From positions 1-28,907 of the forward strand of contig JAYTJL010000038.1 in the NCBI GenBank assembly GCA_043731125.1: 28,907 nucleotides of DNA, given 5' to 3'. Made by a program: the position numbers and the translations under genes. Positions within the stretch are counted from its first letter, which is position 1, and each line of letters opens with the position of its first letter. The notes under the pieces were generated by a model. That model made no database searches. It saw nothing but the letters and a program-made list of their open reading frames with translations, and was not told the DNA's origin. The DNA is from Candidatus Saccharimonadota bacterium (GTDB lineage Bacteria > Patescibacteriota > Saccharimonadia > Saccharimonadales > UBA10212). Shown here piece by piece: positions 4,923 through 13,377 of this stretch.

Positions 4923-5083
4923 CAATCAGTTGTCATGTGCACATTACAATTTGGTTGATATTTCTCTGGCAGTATGGTCAGTCTAGTGCGCTCCTCGGGA
5001 TGAGCAGCCCGACAAAATGTATTCCATTTTGCCGGCGCGACGTGCAAACCCCGAAGGGGTGTCTCATAAGGCGAAGCCGTTAT

Positions 5084-5394
5084 TCCGGGGTAGCTCAGCG
5101 GTAGAGCGGGTGGCTGTCGTTGGCAGCCTATCTCAAGTAATTAGATAGTGAAAACGGGGTGAATTGCAGGAAATCTAAGTCCGCACGTAGTGTCGGATAT
5201 GACAATCTGCAGCCAAGCCGAAGTTAGGTTAATAGACATCGGAAGGTTCAGAGACTAGAGAGTGAGCCTAACAATAATCTCTCAATAGCGCCCTGGTCGC
5301 ACTCAGTGCGATATGAAATAGTCCACACCACTATGAAAATAGAGGGCAAAGTGTAACCACTAGGTCGCTGGTTCGAATCCAGTCCCCGGAGCCA
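5084..5394 (+). tRNA. trnN: tRNA-Asn(GTT) interrupted by a group I intron; exons 5084-5117 and 5354-5394
   Basis: Joined exons fold TCCGGGG/CCCCGGA acceptor, GCTC/GAGC D arm, GGTGG-CTGT^TAA-CCACT anticodon arm, GCTGG-TTCGAAT-CCAGT T arm, discriminator G, encoded CCA. Confidence 0.93.
5118..5353 (+). ncRNA. Self-splicing group I intron (236 nt, no ORF) at tRNA position 35/36; has a P7.1-like insert (subgroup IA-like)
   Basis: P1 GGCTGT/GCAGCC with U5117.G5123 wobble; terminal G5353; P GAATTGCAGGAAA 5161-5173, Q AATCTGCAGCCAAG 5204-5217, R GTTCAGAGACTAG 5246-5258, S GAAATAGTCC 5315-5324; P3 CGGGGTG/CGCCCTG; P8 TCGCAC/GTGCGA; P9 CTAT-GAAA-ATAG. Confidence 0.92.
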
Positions 5395-9653: not shown

Positions 9654-10457
9654 ATGGACGCTTTGCATGCAATCATTCTGGGCATAGTTGAAGGACTGAC
9701 TGAGTTTTTACCCATTAGCAGTACGGGCCATTTAATTATTGCCGAACACTACATTCAGTTTAAAGATACTGCAGAAATTTTTACAGTGTCGGTGCAGGCA
9801 GGAGCGATAGCGGCTGTCATTTGGTACTACCGAAAAGATATATCTTCTAGAATTAGCGGGTTTTTCCGGCGGGACAGGGCACAAGTCGAATTTATGAAAA
9901 ATCTGTCCATAGCTACAGCACCGGCACTGGTGCTAGCCTTCTTGCTTAAAGATGAATTTGATAAATATGCCAAGCCATCAGTTGTAGCATTTGCTCTCAT
10001 AGCCGGTGCTGGCGTGTTGTGGTGGACAGATAAAAAGTTTCCGCCTCATAAAGAAAAAGCCGTACCAAACCTTGATAAGCTAACTACCAAAAATGCACTT
10101 TTTGCTGGGCTGGCCCAATGTATCGCGATCATACCAGGTGTATCGCGAAGTGGCGCCTCTATAGTTGGTGGTATGTTTGGCGGAATGAGTAGAGTTAACT
10201 CAGCTGCGTTGTCTTTTTATATGGCTGTCCCGATCATTTTACTTGCTACGGCTTATAAACTGTTTAGTGGTCGCAACGAACTAGCTATCAGTGTTGATGG
10301 AGGGGTGCAAAGCATTGTCATTGGAGTGGTAGTGTCGTTTGCGGTGGCATTAGTAGCAATATCTTGGCTCATTAAATATGTATCCAATCACAGTTTCAAG
10401 CTGTTTATTTATTACCGAATTGTGCTTGGGCTGTTAGTTCTGGCGCTACTAAATTAG
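9654..10457 (+). CDS. uppP: Undecaprenyl-diphosphate phosphatase
   Basis: LGIVEGLTEFLPISSTGH; AQCIAIIPGVSRSGASI. Confidence 0.96.
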   Translation: MDALHAIILGIVEGLTEFLPISSTGHLIIAEHYIQFKDTAEIFTVSVQAGAIAAVIWYYRKDISSRISGFFRRDRAQVEFMKNLSIATAPALVLAFLLKDEFDKYAKPSVVAFALIAGAGVLWWTDKKFPPHKEKAVPNLDKLTTKNALFAGLAQCIAIIPGVSRSGASIVGGMFGGMSRVNSAALSFYMAVPIILLATAYKLFSGRNELAISVDGGVQSIVIGVVVSFAVALVAISWLIKYVSNHSFKLFIYYRIVLGLLVLALLN

Positions 10458-11487
10458 AAACAGCCAATTTGCCGAGGGTGCCTTCGCTGCGCTCTATTAG
10501 TATAGGAACACCTGCTAGTCTTTCAGTCTCACGGTCTAGTAGTCTAACTATTGATTCAAAATCATCTTCTGTCTCGACGGGTACTATGTCGCCAACAAAC
10601 CACCTGGCGGACTTGTCGTCAATTACCATTGTTGCAGGCAGAGCTAGTTTGCAAGTGTTTTGCAGGGTTAAGCGCAAGGGGCGACTGACTGCTTTTCTAT
10701 TGAGGGCAACTACAACGTCGTTTTCTATAATTTCGTTAATTGTGCTCGCTGTTGGGTCTATTGTCATCCAGGCACTCTTGCCTGACTCTGTTAATGTTGC
10801 CAGGTGGTCTTGCATTGCGTCTTTACCTGAATGATTCATGTACCGTCTTAACTCCTTAGAGTATCCATAGCCAATTGTACTTTTTGTTGGAGGAGGAGTC
10901 TTGACGATAGTTGCTGTTGCACCAAGTACATCCATTGTAGGGATGCCGTTAAAGGTGGTAATTGCTAAGGCAGGGTTGATAGCTAGAATATTCTGTCGTC
11001 GAAAACTAAACAAATCGAAATCATCAGCTGTATCAGCAGCTTTGCTCATAGCGTAGGCGTTGGCAGCGCTGTATATTGCCAGAGCCATCACGTTCGGATG
11101 AAAACTAACAGTAGCAATATTCGAATTAGGCTGAGCTAGCATATGTTGAATGGTCGGTACAGACCTGCCAATGTCATTGGCATACTTTTCAAAGTTGCCA
11201 GTCCCCATAATGCTGTCAGCGCTAAGGCGGATTAGTTCTAAGATGCCAGCTTGTAGATTGATGCGTTCGTCGTTGGTTGATGTGTCTGGAATTTCATGGG
11301 TGATGAGTGCCTGATCAACCGACTGAAAAGGGAAGTTAGTAGTGTCATTAGGCAAAAAACCAATTCGGTTTTGAGGGTCGTGTCTTTTCTTAAGTGAAGT
11401 GATCCAGTCAATAGAAGTACTGTAGAACTGGTTTTGGTATTCCTCTGCTGGCTGTCTGTTATAATTTTTTATCATTGAATTGAGCAT
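10405..11487 (-). CDS. Hypothetical protein, possibly a divergent lysophospholipid-acyltransferase (LPLAT)-like fold
   Basis: Long ORF with protein-like composition; TVSFHPNVMAL lies where LPLATs carry the H-x4-D/E motif, but the acid is missing; start at 11487 chosen because the extension to 11583 looks non-coding. Confidence 0.5.
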   Translation of the reverse strand: MLNSMIKNYNRQPAEEYQNQFYSTSIDWITSLKKRHDPQNRIGFLPNDTTNFPFQSVDQALITHEIPDTSTNDERINLQAGILELIRLSADSIMGTGNFEKYANDIGRSVPTIQHMLAQPNSNIATVSFHPNVMALAIYSAANAYAMSKAADTADDFDLFSFRRQNILAINPALAITTFNGIPTMDVLGATATIVKTPPPTKSTIGYGYSKELRRYMNHSGKDAMQDHLATLTESGKSAWMTIDPTASTINEIIENDVVVALNRKAVSRPLRLTLQNTCKLALPATMVIDDKSARWFVGDIVPVETEDDFESIVRLLDRETERLAGVPILIERSEGTLGKLAVSNLVAPELTAQAQFGNK

Positions 11488-11743
11488 ATCAAAGCCAACC
11501 TGGATAGTGAAAAGTACTACGTTCAAAAACAAAGTACATGGTAATATTAAAGTCCGTTCGATTAACAAATAATTAGAACTCATCCCAGAAGGTAACTTTC
11601 TGCTCCAAAAAGACTCTCACTGTCTGCAAGATGATTTTTGCTTCTCGACGTAGCTATGGCTACGTCTCGTCGCAATAAATCGTCTTTCGCTAAGTGACTT
11701 TTGTCATTCTGGACAATGAAAGCACTTCCGAGATGAATCCTAG

Positions 11744-11924
11744 ATGCTGGAACCCCGTGTGAATCGGGGACTGTGCCGCAACGGTAAAAACCATGAGAAA
11801 CCCCTCCGCGGTTTCTCATCGCGCCGGGAGAATGAAATACATTTTCTCGGGCTGCTCATCCGGGTATAAAGATGAGCAAGTTGAAGTCCGATACAGCAAC
11901 ACGTAAACTAACTCCCGTGCAGGA
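11744..11924 (+). ncRNA. Cobalamin (B12) riboswitch, variant with a three-hairpin P6 extension
   Basis: TGCTG-GAA-CCCC-GTGTGAATC-GGGG-A-CTG-TGCCG-CAA-CGGTAA ... AAG-TCCG-ATA-CAGCA four-way junction; downstream hairpin TCC-CGTGCA-GGA can kiss L5 TGCCG. Confidence 0.78.
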
Positions 11925-11954
11925 TAAGGTACTTTATACCTCAAGTATTTTATA

Positions 11955-11982
11955 ACCCTGTCAGAGAGACAGGGTATTTTTT
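11955..11982 (+). terminator. Intrinsic terminator (riboswitch expression platform) ending at the ATG of the next gene
   Basis: ACCCTGTC-AGAGA-GACAGGGT then A-TTTTTT, then ATG 11983. Confidence 0.7.
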
Positions 11983-13377
11983 ATGGCCGCGACAGCCGAA
12001 CGATCACAACACATAGGGTTTGACGAGTACTACTACGAGACGGCCCGCAAGATAGCGTTGGCTCCTTATATCGGTCGTACAGCACTTCAGGAGAATTTTG
12101 CTGGAGTAGAACAACGCAAGACAGATGAAGTAATCGACGGCATTGCTGAAGCAATACCAGGTGTAGTCAAAAATCTGCGGCCATACGATGTGGTTGATGG
12201 TGTATTGGTAGCTGAGGATGGTCAGCCCATGGAGGAGTTGCTAGTAAATGGAGTCAGTCATTCCATGAAATTGGCATCAGGAGATAGCCTGCTCGCGCAG
12301 TTTGGTCCGTCCAGGGCTAGACACGAGCTGAACGAGGCTAGGTTGTGGCAATCTATGGTAAACGGTGAGGGTGGCTACAATACGCTCCTTGTACTCTCAC
12401 CGTATAGCGAGGAGTACCTGACCGACGAGACAGTAGTTAAATTGCAACGGGCTGGCCAAGAACCAAAAACCAAGCGTGCAATGCTAAGAATCGCCCACTG
12501 GGATGGTCAACAACTGCATGTGCTAACACGCTCTATAGATAATTCGAGTGTTGCTATGTTACAGGAAGCTTCAGTGCGACATGATGGCTATAGGTATAAT
12601 GCAAAAAACTCGACAGAAATGTTGGGTGAGCGCCGTGAGTTGAACATGGGCAAAGAACAGGTAGTCAACTTTGCTCGTGGGCTGGTTGTCGAAGCAGATA
12701 GGCTGATTAGTCAAAACATTCGTGAACAAACAATTCAAGGTAGACCAGCAAGGGAGGCACATGACACACAGCAATATGTGCAGTCCCAGCAACAGATAAT
12801 CAGTAGCCTTGTGCGGATTAGTCGGCAGCTAGCGAGCGACCACACAACTTATGAAAGTTACAAGAAAGCTTGGGAAAAACAGCTCTACGACCATACAGCA
12901 CTCATTAAAGAACGAATGCTCGGAAACGACACTCGAATTATTGAAGATGTTGGACGAGCAGCATCAGCATCCGGTGTTGGGGCTGAATCAAGGGGTGAGA
13001 CATATAATATGTGTGGCACGATAATTTCGGCCAATGGAGAGTCGCGCGCTGGCGAAGGTATTGGCATGGAGTCGGTTAAGAATTTGATTGGAAGAAAAGT
13101 TACATGTCCTGAGTGCAAAGAAAAAGTAGAAATACCCACCAGTAAATTAAACGAAGACATATTGTGTTGTCCAGATTGTAAGTACGAGGTGGAAGTTTGC
13201 ACGGGGCAGGTTATTACCAAATCGCAGAAGGGCTCCAACAACCCAAGCTCAGATAGGATGAGTATCTACGACGTTGTAGCACAAGAATTTTCCAAGAATA
13301 TGCGCAGGATTGATAGCTCCATAGCAGTGCGTAAAATTGCCAAGCAAGAGAAGGAAGAGTTAGAAAGAGCTACTTAG
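11983..13377 (+). CDS. Hypothetical 464-aa protein with C-terminal zinc-ribbon
   Basis: NMCG, CPEC, CCPDC and VC cysteines; no TM or signal peptide apparent; no family recognised. Confidence 0.75.
   Translation: MAATAERSQHIGFDEYYYETARKIALAPYIGRTALQENFAGVEQRKTDEVIDGIAEAIPGVVKNLRPYDVVDGVLVAEDGQPMEELLVNGVSHSMKLASGDSLLAQFGPSRARHELNEARLWQSMVNGEGGYNTLLVLSPYSEEYLTDETVVKLQRAGQEPKTKRAMLRIAHWDGQQLHVLTRSIDNSSVAMLQEASVRHDGYRYNAKNSTEMLGERRELNMGKEQVVNFARGLVVEADRLISQNIREQTIQGRPAREAHDTQQYVQSQQQIISSLVRISRQLASDHTTYESYKKAWEKQLYDHTALIKERMLGNDTRIIEDVGRAASASGVGAESRGETYNMCGTIISANGESRAGEGIGMESVKNLIGRKVTCPECKEKVEIPTSKLNEDILCCPDCKYEVEVCTGQVITKSQKGSNNPSSDRMSIYDVVAQEFSKNMRRIDSSIAVRKIAKQEKEELERAT

What the first reader, a model, noticed from the sequence alone, without database searches (positions are those of the whole stretch)
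11744..13377. Variant cobalamin riboswitch with a complete OFF-type expression platform controlling an unknown zinc-ribbon protein
Seen: a B12-riboswitch receptor core. It has P3 TGCTG/CAGCA, J3/4 GAA, T-loop hairpin CCCC-GTGTGAATC-GGGG, L5 TGCCG and P6 CGG/CCG. A downstream P13 hairpin (TCC-CGTGCA-GGA, 11913-11924) has a loop that can kiss L5 with one bulged base. P13's CAGG (11920-11923) is complementary to CCTG (11957-11960) in the 5' arm of a terminator that ends exactly at ATG 11983, giving a plausible antiterminator/terminator switch. Established: cobalamin riboswitches normally repress B12 uptake/synthesis genes or B12-independent isozymes (metE, nrdAB/nrdD). Inference: the 464-aa soluble protein with CPEC/CCPDC zinc ribbon resembles none of these. 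It could be an unrecognised B12-scavenging factor or a B12-independent substitute enzyme in a host-dependent bacterium that cannot make B12. This is the best candidate for an undescribed system here.
Basis: partly seen in the sequence, partly recalled or inferred. Interest (0 to 1): 0.82.

Follow-up and report, generated by a model that had tools for sequence, protein, structure and literature searches.

The report
B12 riboswitch controlling an unknown new-fold protein
A genuine vitamin-B12-sensing RNA OFF-switch sits in front of a protein of unknown function and no recognisable fold, and the pairing recurs across an order of tiny B12-dependent bacteria, marking the protein as an undescribed part of their B12 biology.

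Summary
Rfam's cobalamin model matches only below threshold (28.7 vs 31.5 bits). Comparative data settle it: a clade-specific covariance model finds the full aptamer plus P13 in 65 of 66 sources searched, and 16 of 19 base pairs show compensatory changes.

The OFF platform is real. A GC-rich hairpin plus U-tract abuts the start codon. Its 5' arm is complementary to L13 and the 3' arm of P13 (mean -10.25 vs -6.73 kcal/mol shuffled). The window's own antiterminator is weak.

The 464-aa product belongs to a fast-evolving family found in at least 156 of 301 genomes of this order (one homolog is labelled Saccharimonadales) and not elsewhere in the phylum. Its main domain models at pLDDT 96.6 yet matches no solved or predicted structure.

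Nearly all genomes of the order rely on B12-dependent NrdJ and carry CobA, so the protein is not a missing adenosyltransferase. Lineages that switched to class I RNR lack riboswitch and family. In one genome the gene shares a riboswitch operon with a transcobalamin-like binder (DUF4430) and a DUF6580 protein.

Best reading: a cytoplasmic B12 acquisition or handling factor (about 0.5). A B12-independent bypass is not excluded. No earlier scan note on other DNA.

The parts
11539..11573 (+). Candidate promoter and leader motif: extended -10 (TG-n-TAATAT, 11539-11547), then AAAGTCCGTTCGATTAACAAATAA
   Evidence: The same motif lies 15-45 nt upstream of the aptamer in L002 and L007. In the window about 170 nt separate it from the aptamer. 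Its role as a promoter is inference; the sigma-70 scan did not call it.
11745..11898 (+). Cobalamin aptamer. P3 is 11745-11749 with 11894-11898; J3/4 is 11750-11752; P4/L4 is 11753-11769; P5/L5 is 11772-11780 (L5 11774-11778); P6 is 11782-11784 with 11888-11890; J6/3 is 11891-11893.
   Evidence: RF00174 28.7 bits; model R1 98.6 bits, but the window was one of the seeds; covariation in P3, P4, P5 and P6 over 63 distinct sequences.
11785..11887 (+). Idiosyncratic insertion of about 100 nt in the P6 loop (several hairpins); not part of the conserved core
   Evidence: Absent in L005 and L011, and different in sequence and length in L002, L003 and L010. Rfam treats it as an insertion.
11913..11924 (+). 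P13 hairpin; the L13 loop CGUGCA (11916-11921) is the proposed kissing partner of L5
   Evidence: The P13 stem covaries in all 4 pairs. L5 is invariant in 65 of 65. L13 reads CG-N-GCA in 61 of 65, and among those only the predicted bulge varies.
11919..11961 (+). Antiterminator: GCAGG (11919-11923) pairs with CCUGU (11957-11961) and stacks on the middle hairpin 11924-11953
   Evidence: This is the MFE of the nascent transcript, -14.9 kcal/mol, lost when L13 is blocked (-9.1). Family-wide complementarity between L13/P13-3' and the terminator's 5' arm.
11955..11982 (+). Intrinsic terminator and probable ribosome-binding-site sequestor: stem-loop 11955-11975, U-tract 11977-11982, directly followed by ATG 11983
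   Evidence: Pattern scan; RNAfold -12.9 kcal/mol; arms covary among the seed loci; similar hairpin plus U-tract within about 60 nt of P13 in about 45 of 63 distinct loci. Occlusion of the G-rich stretch 11971-11974 is inference.
11983..13377 (+). Gene for the 464-aa protein P0001, member of an order-specific uncharacterised family
12010..13032 (+). Main alpha/beta domain (residues 10-350) with no recognisable fold. Near-invariant residues: E56, G80, E115, E118, S139, R169, D186, D239, G253, C344.
   Evidence: AlphaFold2 pLDDT 96.6, pTM 0.92; no structural match; conservation.
13096..13206 (+). C-terminal four-Cys zinc ribbon (C375, C378, C396, C399) plus conserved C406
   Evidence: Invariant Cys columns. 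Sub-threshold Zn_ribbon_LysW and YnfU hits. The profile matches eL43-type ribbons in the PDB.

Best explanation
The region 11745-11982 is a functional cobalamin riboswitch of the class-II type of core, with an unusual insertion in the P6 loop. Its logic is OFF. When cobalamin is bound, loop L5 kisses loop L13 and holds P13 closed. That leaves CCUGU (11957-11961) free to form the terminator 11955-11975, so transcription stops at the U-tract that abuts the ATG, and the G-rich ribosome-binding stretch is buried as well. Without ligand, L13 and the 3' arm of P13 pair with the terminator's 5' arm. This extends the middle hairpin into an antiterminator, and the gene is expressed. This part is likely at about 0.9. 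The controlled gene encodes a cytoplasmic protein with a new-fold main domain and a C-terminal zinc ribbon. It belongs to a fast-evolving family confined to this order. Nearly all genomes of the order depend on imported B12 for their adenosylcobalamin-dependent ribonucleotide reductase NrdJ. I read the protein as a B12 acquisition or handling factor made only when B12 is scarce. It could be an intracellular corrinoid binder, escort or processing enzyme acting between uptake and CobA/NrdJ, perhaps using the invariant Cys344 and the acidic cluster. This part is likely at about 0.5. Shown here: the RNA structure, its conservation, the platform logic and the phyletic link to NrdJ and B12. Inferred: ligand binding, the direction of regulation in vivo and the protein's biochemical role.
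For: RNA. All 9 ortholog loci have a cobalamin-clan hit on the gene's strand, upstream of the gene. So do 28 of 29 further loci of distant homologs, 15 of them above Rfam cut-offs. My model R1 finds the full aptamer plus P13 in 65 of 66 sources searched, including L026, which Rfam missed. 96.5% of cells are paired against 75.6% in shuffles. 16 of 19 pairs show double changes. The covariation score is 0.547 against at most 0.108 for slid controls. L5 is invariant; L13 reads CG-N-GCA in 61 of 65, varying there only at the bulge.

Platform. A hairpin plus U-tract abuts the start codon. The L13/P13-3' segment pairs with the downstream 60 nt at a mean of -10.25 kcal/mol, against -6.73 shuffled and -6.76 for a reversed query. 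31 of 63 loci are individually at p<=0.05. The target lies in the terminator's 5' arm in 38 of 52. Window folding is consistent.

Protein context. This is the only cobalamin riboswitch candidate in the window's genome. NrdJ is the only RNR found there. NrdJ is present in 294 of 301 genomes of the order. The family is present in 156 of 301 and in more divergent forms behind the single riboswitch of 'negative' genomes.

In G058 one riboswitch heads DUF4430, DUF6580, the family gene and a membrane protein. DUF4430 is the transcobalamin C-terminal domain (PMC4350170).

Eleven genomes with class I RNR, from three families of the order, show neither the riboswitch nor the protein family. The five of them that were in the CobA sample show no CobA above cut-off. 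NrdJ-bearing relatives in the same family have riboswitch and gene adjacent.

No EcfT, BtuC-type permease, DUF6580 or DUF4430 was found in the window's genome.
Against: No ligand binding or regulation was measured. The window's RF00174 score is below the curated cut-off, and its antiterminator is only 5 bp (p about 0.44). The kissing loop is supported by conservation only, not by covariation. The A5 alignment was fitted to the model, which favours the structure.

For the protein there is no B12-binding domain, no signal peptide or membrane segment seen by eye, and no fold relative, so the role rests entirely on context. Riboswitch control and co-loss with NrdJ are equally expected for a B12-independent bypass. 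The co-operon with uptake genes was seen in a single genome. The family is detected in only about half of the NrdJ-bearing genomes. The window's genome is 81% complete.
Confidence: 0.5

Rival explanations
1. The protein is a B12-independent bypass. It would be expressed only when B12 is lacking and would compensate for an inactive NrdJ, for example through an alternative route to deoxynucleotides or a way to survive without them. This would parallel metE or nrdAB/nrdDG under cobalamin riboswitches in other bacteria.
For: OFF-type riboswitches classically repress B12-independent isozymes (established knowledge). NrdJ is the only RNR found in the window's genome. The conservation pattern looks enzyme-like, with invariant E, D, S, R and C at 15% mean column identity. 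Loss together with NrdJ in class I RNR lineages also fits this reading.
Against: No resemblance to any RNR, nucleoside kinase or deoxyribosyltransferase fold. In G058 the gene is co-transcribed with B12-capture and membrane genes, which is the company kept by acquisition genes. Very fast sequence divergence is unusual for a central metabolic enzyme. G114 lacks NrdJ, CobA and any class I/II RNR, and it also lacks the family.
Confidence: 0.2
2. The protein is a regulator or nucleic-acid-binding factor, using its zinc ribbon, that reprograms the cell under B12 starvation (growth arrest, replication control).
For: A C-terminal zinc ribbon of the kind found in ribosomal and transcription proteins. 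Long helices, with weak VIA matches to sigma-factor and TetR-like helical bundles at Z about 5.
Against: Those Z-scores are at noise level by the tool's own calibration. No DNA-binding domain was detected. The invariant acidic, Ser and Cys residues in the main domain suggest a catalytic or ligand site.
Confidence: 0.1
3. The protein is a novel ATP:cob(I)alamin adenosyltransferase that fills a gap, because the window's genome shows neither a CobA-type nor a PduO-type enzyme.
For: Neither PF02572 nor PF01923 was found in the window's genome, while NrdJ needs adenosylcobalamin.
Against: CobA/BtuR is present in 141 of 151 genomes of the order, including genomes that carry the family. Its absence from the 81%-complete window genome is most simply an assembly gap.
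Confidence: 0.03
4. The riboswitch is an orphan relic, and the downstream hairpin is merely a terminator unrelated to the gene.
For: The Rfam score in the window is below the gathering threshold.
Against: The pairing of riboswitch and gene is conserved across the order, with compensatory changes in every helix and a conserved antiterminator/terminator relation.
Confidence: 0.01

Closest known systems
Cobalamin riboswitches, Rfam clan CL00101 (RF00174 Cobalamin, RF01689 AdoCbl-II, RF01482 AdoCbl); classes Cbl-I, Cbl-IIa, Cbl-IIb as summarised in PMC7367189
   Same: A four-way junction P3-P6, a T-loop-type L4, conserved L5, a J6/3-P3' core, an L5-L13 kissing loop to a regulatory hairpin, and OFF regulation through a terminator. 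Minimal relatives (L005, L011, L034, L036) score as RF01689, up to 57.2 bits.
   Different: The window's copy carries an insertion of about 100 nt in the P6 loop. Rfam aligns this stretch as a plain insertion rather than to its P6-extension positions, so I do not read it as the Cbl-I P7-P11 extension; no direct comparison with P7-P11 was made. No P2 module or convincing P1 was seen. It falls below Rfam's gathering score. Ligand selectivity (AdoCbl versus MeCbl/HyCbl) cannot be read from the sequence.
B12 uptake and capture genes usually found under cobalamin riboswitches (BtuB/BtuFCD, ECF-CbrT, BtuM, transcobalamin-like DUF4430 binders)
   Same: Same regulatory position. In G058 the family gene is in the same riboswitch operon as DUF4430 and DUF6580. 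In some genomes DUF4430 plus DUF6580 are the riboswitch's only cargo.
   Different: The family protein shows no obvious membrane segment or signal peptide and no sequence or fold similarity to any of these. It cannot itself be a membrane transporter.
B12-independent isozymes under cobalamin riboswitches (MetE, NrdAB/NrdEF, NrdDG)
   Same: Repressed by B12, in an organism whose only detected RNR is B12-dependent.
   Different: No similarity to MetE or to any RNR class. No NrdD was found in the window's genome.
Intracellular cobalamin trafficking and processing proteins (CblC/MMACHC, CblD/MMADHC, the Cys-ligating BtuM); recalled from memory, not tested
   Same: The proposed role is handling of imported corrinoids before adenosylation. 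An invariant cysteine could ligate cobalt.
   Different: No detectable homology. This is an analogy of function only.

Membership tests
Cobalamin riboswitch (Rfam CL00101) | Match to a curated covariance model at or above its gathering score | tested here: inconclusive
   Window: RF00174 28.7 bits against a cut-off of 31.5, local match only. Homologous elements pass: L011 41.5 and L036 57.2 (RF01689, cut-off 36.5), L009 33.9 (RF00174), L067 56.2 (RF01482, cut-off 50).
Cobalamin riboswitch (Rfam CL00101) | Four-way junction P3-P4-P5-P6 supported by covariation | tested here: met
   All four helices have compensatory changes; 96.5% of cells paired; score 0.547 against 0.152 shuffled.
Cobalamin riboswitch (Rfam CL00101) | L5-L13 kissing loop linking aptamer and expression platform | tested here: inconclusive
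   L5 UGCCG is invariant. L13 reads CG-N-GCA in 61 of 65, with variation there only at the predicted bulge. This fits the kissing loop, but there is no covariation to prove the pairs.
Cobalamin riboswitch (Rfam CL00101) | Binds a cobalamin and changes gene expression | not testable with these tools
   Needs in-line probing or ITC, and termination or reporter assays.
Cbl-I class | P2 loop-stem-loop and a P7-P11 extension of P6 (PMC7367189) | tested here: not met
   The window's insertion is aligned by Rfam as an insertion, not to the extension. It is absent or different in close relatives. No P2 module is apparent.
Cbl-II class | No P2 module and a short P6 loop or hairpin (PMC7367189) | tested here: inconclusive
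   Met by relatives such as L005 and L011 (P6 loop of 7 nt). The window has the same core but a P6 insertion of about 100 nt.
Zinc-ribbon proteins | Two CxxC knuckles that are conserved | tested here: met
   C375, C378, C396 and C399 are invariant in 14 orthologs. Cys columns are 85-99% conserved in 146 sequences. Pfam and NCBIfam ribbon models hit below their cut-offs.
Cobalamin adenosyltransferases (CobA/BtuR PF02572, PduO PF01923) | Match to the family profile | tested here: not met
   No Pfam or NCBIfam hit for P0001. A separate CobA gene exists in 141 of 151 genomes of the order.
B12-binding domain proteins (PF02310) and transcobalamin-like binders (DUF4430) | Match to the family profile or fold | tested here: not met
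   No such hit for P0001. No fold match in the PDB, AFDB Swiss-Prot or the atlas.
Ribonucleotide reductases (any class) | Ten-stranded alpha/beta barrel, with matches to PF02867 or PF13597 | tested here: not met
   No profile hit and no RNR among the fold matches.

The most novel reading that the evidence does not exclude
The 464-aa protein founds a new structural class of cytoplasmic corrinoid-handling proteins. It would be a B12 binder, escort or processing enzyme specific to Saccharimonadales. Together with still unidentified membrane partners (DUF6580, P0161-like proteins) it would form an undescribed route by which these epibiotic, genome-reduced bacteria obtain B12 for their only ribonucleotide reductase.
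Probability: 0.45. Interest if true: 0.85.

Novelty: new variant of a known kind. Interest (0 to 1): 0.72.

Why it matters
Riboswitches are reliable signposts to ligand-related genes, and unknown genes behind cobalamin riboswitches have led to B12 transporters and binders before (my recollection, not checked here). In this case the signpost points to a protein with a confidently modelled but unmatched fold. The protein is present in at least half of the genomes of an order in which nearly every member relies on B12-dependent NrdJ to make DNA precursors. No known B12 importer was found in the window's own genome. Working out what this protein does would bear on how these ultra-small symbionts obtain an essential cofactor from hosts or neighbours. 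It could also add a new protein class to B12 biochemistry. The RNA itself adds a well-supported set of class-II-type aptamers with a clean L13/terminator competition, useful for riboswitch models.

Tried and rejected
(1) Rfam at gathering thresholds gave no cobalamin hit in the window. I needed the permissive scan and a clade-specific model.

(2) The 'novel adenosyltransferase' idea arose from the absence of CobA and PduO in the window's genome. I rejected it because CobA is near-universal in the order.

(3) I tested for a mutually exclusive distribution with the DUF4430 capture system. It does not hold: about 10 of the 25 DUF4430 genomes also have the family.

(4) Fold searches with both models found nothing above noise. 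These covered Foldseek PDB, VIA-align wide, AFDB clusters, AFDB Swiss-Prot and the ESM atlas. AFDB clusters gave only 'uncharacterised protein' relatives.

(5) The language-model atlas, PADLOC, NCBIfam and PDB sequence profiles gave only generic zinc-ribbon matches.

(6) Literature searches on cobalamin riboswitches in Saccharibacteria, Patescibacteria or CPR found nothing relevant, and DUF6580 has no literature.

(7) Longest exact Watson-Crick complementarity was a poor statistic for the antiterminator (5.3 vs 4.7 nt). I replaced it with duplex energies that allow G-U pairs.

(8) The P0161-like membrane protein was not found in the window's genome with a single-protein query.

(9) DUF6580 has no sequence relative in the PDB, so I could not equate it with a solved B12 transporter component.

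(10) Model coordinates are not exposed, so spatial clustering of the conserved residues could not be checked.
Full report
1. The observation.

They are listed in the observation check and the parts table. The ORF 11983-13377 encodes 464 aa containing CPEC and CCPDC.

Rfam at gathering thresholds reports only a group I intron elsewhere in the window. A permissive scan of the intergenic region gives RF00174 at 28.7 bits (cut-off 31.5, E 1.6e-5). It matches model positions 48-166 only, over 11750-11831. It is the only cobalamin candidate in the whole 0.65-Mb, 81%-complete genome.

2. Is the RNA real?

The protein has 13 homologs in the 5.8-billion-protein index, one of them labelled Saccharimonadales. 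Nine of their loci were fetched. They share synteny: the gene is convergent with a Na/H-exchanger-TrkA gene, followed by Nramp or DsbA. All nine have a cobalamin-clan match on the gene's strand, upstream of the gene, two of them above curated cut-offs.

The upstream regions show one architecture:
- The core is GCUGGAA, then P4, then ACUGUGCCGCAACGGU, a variable insert, and AGUCCGAYACAGC.
- Then comes a P13 hairpin with loop CG-N-GCA.
- Then a middle hairpin.
- Then a GC-rich hairpin and U-tract abutting the start codon.

This alignment shows that Rfam's local match in the window mistook GCGCCGGGAGA, inside the P6 insertion, for the B12 box. The true J6/3-P3' is at 11886-11898.

I built a covariance model of aptamer plus P13 from the ten seed loci. 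It finds the complete element once in each of 65 of the 66 sources searched, at 35-108 bits. That includes L026, which Rfam had missed, and there is only one hit in the window.

On the resulting alignment of 63 distinct sequences:
- 96.5% of cells form standard pairs, against 75.6% in shuffles.
- 16 of 19 pairs carry changes on both sides.
- The covariation score is 0.547, against 0.152 shuffled and at most 0.108 when partners are slid.
- Each of P3, P4, P5, P6 and P13 has compensatory changes.

One caveat: the alignment was fitted to the model.

L5 is UGCCG in all 65 sequences. L13 is CG-N-GCA in 61 of them, and among those only the base predicted to bulge varies. That pattern is what the kissing loop predicts, but it gives no covariation.

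By the classification summarised in PMC7367189, the core is of the Cbl-II type. The window's P6 insertion of about 100 nt is idiosyncratic: it is absent from L005 and L011, and different in L002, L003 and L010. Ligand preference cannot be inferred.

3. The expression platform.

A simple scan calls the terminator at 11955-11975. Among 63 distinct loci, 52 have a hairpin followed by a U-tract. About 45 of these are strong (at most -8 kcal/mol) and lie within about 60 nt of P13. In many the U-tract runs directly into the start codon.

The terminator 5' arms commonly read CCUGCUCG or CUUGCUCG, the complement of L13 plus the 3' arm of P13 (CGAGCAGG). Quantitatively:
- This 10-nt segment pairs with the next 60 nt at a mean of -10.25 kcal/mol.
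- Shuffled targets give -6.73, and a reversed query gives -6.76.
- 31 of 63 loci are individually at p<=0.05.
- The target lies in the terminator's 5' arm in 38 of the 52 loci with a called terminator.

The window's own pairing (GCAGG:CCUGU, -7.4 kcal/mol, p about 0.44) is among the weaker ones.

Folding agrees:
- Before the terminator's 3' arm is transcribed, the MFE is the antiterminator stacked on the middle hairpin (-14.9 kcal/mol).
- Blocking L13, which mimics the kiss, abolishes that structure (-9.1).
- The full-length MFE is the terminator (-22.8).

So this is a kinetic OFF switch. The G-rich 3' arm lies 8-12 nt before the ATG, so it is probably also the ribosome-binding site. That last point is inference.

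4. The protein.

Pfam and NCBIfam give only sub-threshold zinc-ribbon matches. A profile search of 1.8 billion representatives finds 329 members at E<=1e-3.

In 301 sampled genomes of the order, the subfamily profile finds 77 and a broader profile finds 156 (123 of 217 genera). In about 190 genomes of other orders of the phylum nothing was found at E<=1e-8.

Across 146 sequences, mean column identity is 15%. Even so, E56, G80, E115, E118, S139, R169, D186, D239, G253, C344 and the ribbon cysteines are 90-99% conserved. That pattern suggests an active or ligand site.

AlphaFold2 with 14 sequences gave pLDDT 82.7. With 146 sequences, the main body (residues 10-350) gave pLDDT 96.6 and pTM 0.92. 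Neither model matches anything:
- Foldseek against the PDB: best E about 0.01-0.025, at TM about 0.1.
- VIA-align against 48,161 chains: best Z 5.5, which is noise by the tool's own calibration.
- AFDB Swiss-Prot: best E 0.35.
- ESM atlas: TM at most 0.30.
- AFDB clusters: only 'uncharacterised protein' relatives at 11-17% identity.

5. Context that bears on function.

(a) The window's genome has one RNR, a class II adenosylcobalamin-dependent NrdJ (NF005122, 1376 bits), next to NrdR. No NrdD and no PF02310 B12-binding domain were found.

(b) NrdJ is present in 294 of 301 genomes of the order. One of the 301 genomes, G263, is flagged as unpublished. It enters the order-wide tallies only, and no individual claim rests on it.

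(c) CobA/BtuR is present in 141 of 151 genomes and PduO in 0 of 151. The family is therefore not a missing adenosyltransferase.

(d) The pairing with the riboswitch holds in 28 of 29 further loci by Rfam, and in all of them by my model.

(e) I took 30 well-assembled genomes without a subfamily match. 23 of them have exactly one cobalamin riboswitch candidate. Most of these are followed by a 400-500-aa ORF. The broad profile recognises at least 10 of those as divergent family members, and three more link to them by BLAST.

(f) In four such loci the cargo is instead DUF4430, followed by DUF6580 or by an alpha-alpha-toroid protein. DUF4430 is the C-terminal domain of transcobalamin-type binders (PMC4350170).

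(g) In G058 one riboswitch heads a single same-strand operon: DUF4430, DUF6580, the family gene, a membrane protein and a NadD-like gene. A homolog of that membrane protein follows the family gene in L022 and L024.

(h) The same-genus genome G176 has a second, strong riboswitch (RF01482, 56.2 bits) upstream of its DUF4430 match, on a 1.7-kb contig. The window's incomplete genome may lack that piece.

(i) Natural loss experiment. Eleven genomes from three families of the order have a class I RNR above cut-off. They have no riboswitch and no family member. The five that were in the CobA sample have no CobA above cut-off. Two NrdJ-bearing genomes of the same taxonomic family (G232, G295) have riboswitch and gene adjacent. 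G114 lacks any class I/II RNR, CobA, the riboswitch and the family gene; G247 lacks the RNR, the riboswitch and the family gene, and was not in the CobA sample.

(j) No EcfT, BtuC-type permease, DUF6580 or DUF4430 was found in the window's genome.

6. Interpretation.

The RNA is a bona fide cobalamin riboswitch with OFF logic. The protein is tied to the B12/NrdJ lifestyle and is expressed when B12 is low.

Its company in G058, and its interchange with a capture-plus-membrane module at the same regulatory position, favour a role in B12 acquisition or intracellular handling. Its apparent lack of membrane segments places it in the cytoplasm, between import and CobA/NrdJ.

A B12-independent bypass remains a serious rival, because riboswitch control and co-loss with NrdJ fit it equally well. 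Nothing here measures ligand binding or activity.

7. Novelty.

The riboswitch is a new, divergent member of a known family. Its cargo is an uncharacterised, order-specific family with no recognisable fold.

Noticed in passing
window 5082-5345: A group I intron (RF00028, 73.7 bits, full length). The 5' end of the Rfam alignment reads like a tRNA acceptor/D arm, yet ARAGORN reports no tRNA in the window, as expected for an intron-split tRNA gene.
   Followed up: partly
window 11574-11744: About 170 nt lie between the conserved leader motif (TG-n-TAATAT plus AAAGTCCGTTCGATTAACAAATAA, 11539-11573) and the aptamer. In L002 and L007 the same motif sits only 15-45 nt upstream of the aptamer. The extra stretch contains a clean hairpin (GACGTAGC/GCTACGTC, about 11649-11668). 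Its origin is unknown, whether an insertion or a longer leader.
   Followed up: no
window 10405-11583 (-) and 11580-11819 (-): The divergent upstream ORF is 392 aa with no family match. It is 25-90 aa longer than its counterparts in related loci, so its true start may lie further in, which would remove the hydrophobic N-terminus. The 79-aa minus-strand ORF overlapping the aptamer is probably spurious. A minus-strand terminator-like hairpin (11819-11793) lies inside the P6 insertion.
   Followed up: no
L024 2617-3336, L022 2635-3357, L066 657-1412 (-): An uncharacterised membrane protein of about 240-250 aa (P0161 family; 30% identity between G120 and G058 copies, E 7e-19) repeatedly follows the riboswitch-controlled gene. 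It is itself followed by, and overlaps, a NadD-like adenylyltransferase gene. It is a candidate membrane partner. A single-protein query did not find it in the window's genome.
   Followed up: partly
L067 (G176 contig C52) 782-919: A genome of the same genus has a second cobalamin riboswitch of a different flavour (RF01482 AdoCbl, 56.2 bits) upstream of a DUF4430 match. So two differently built B12 sensors may coexist in this genus.
   Followed up: partly
Genomes G064, G146, G173, G197, G217, G260, G272, G284, G109, G143, G132: Three families within the order have a class I RNR (TIGR02506 above cut-off), and only weak TIGR02504 (NrdJ model) scores. They lack the riboswitch and the protein family. 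Where sampled, they also lack CobA above cut-off. This looks like repeated escape from B12 dependence. G114 and G247 (100% complete) show no class I/II RNR at all.
   Followed up: partly
L063 1707-3127: In G292 the riboswitch is followed by a DUF4430 protein and then a protein with squalene-hopene-cyclase/prenyltransferase alpha-alpha-toroid matches. From memory these are the two halves of a transcobalamin-like fold, encoded here as separate genes.
   Followed up: no
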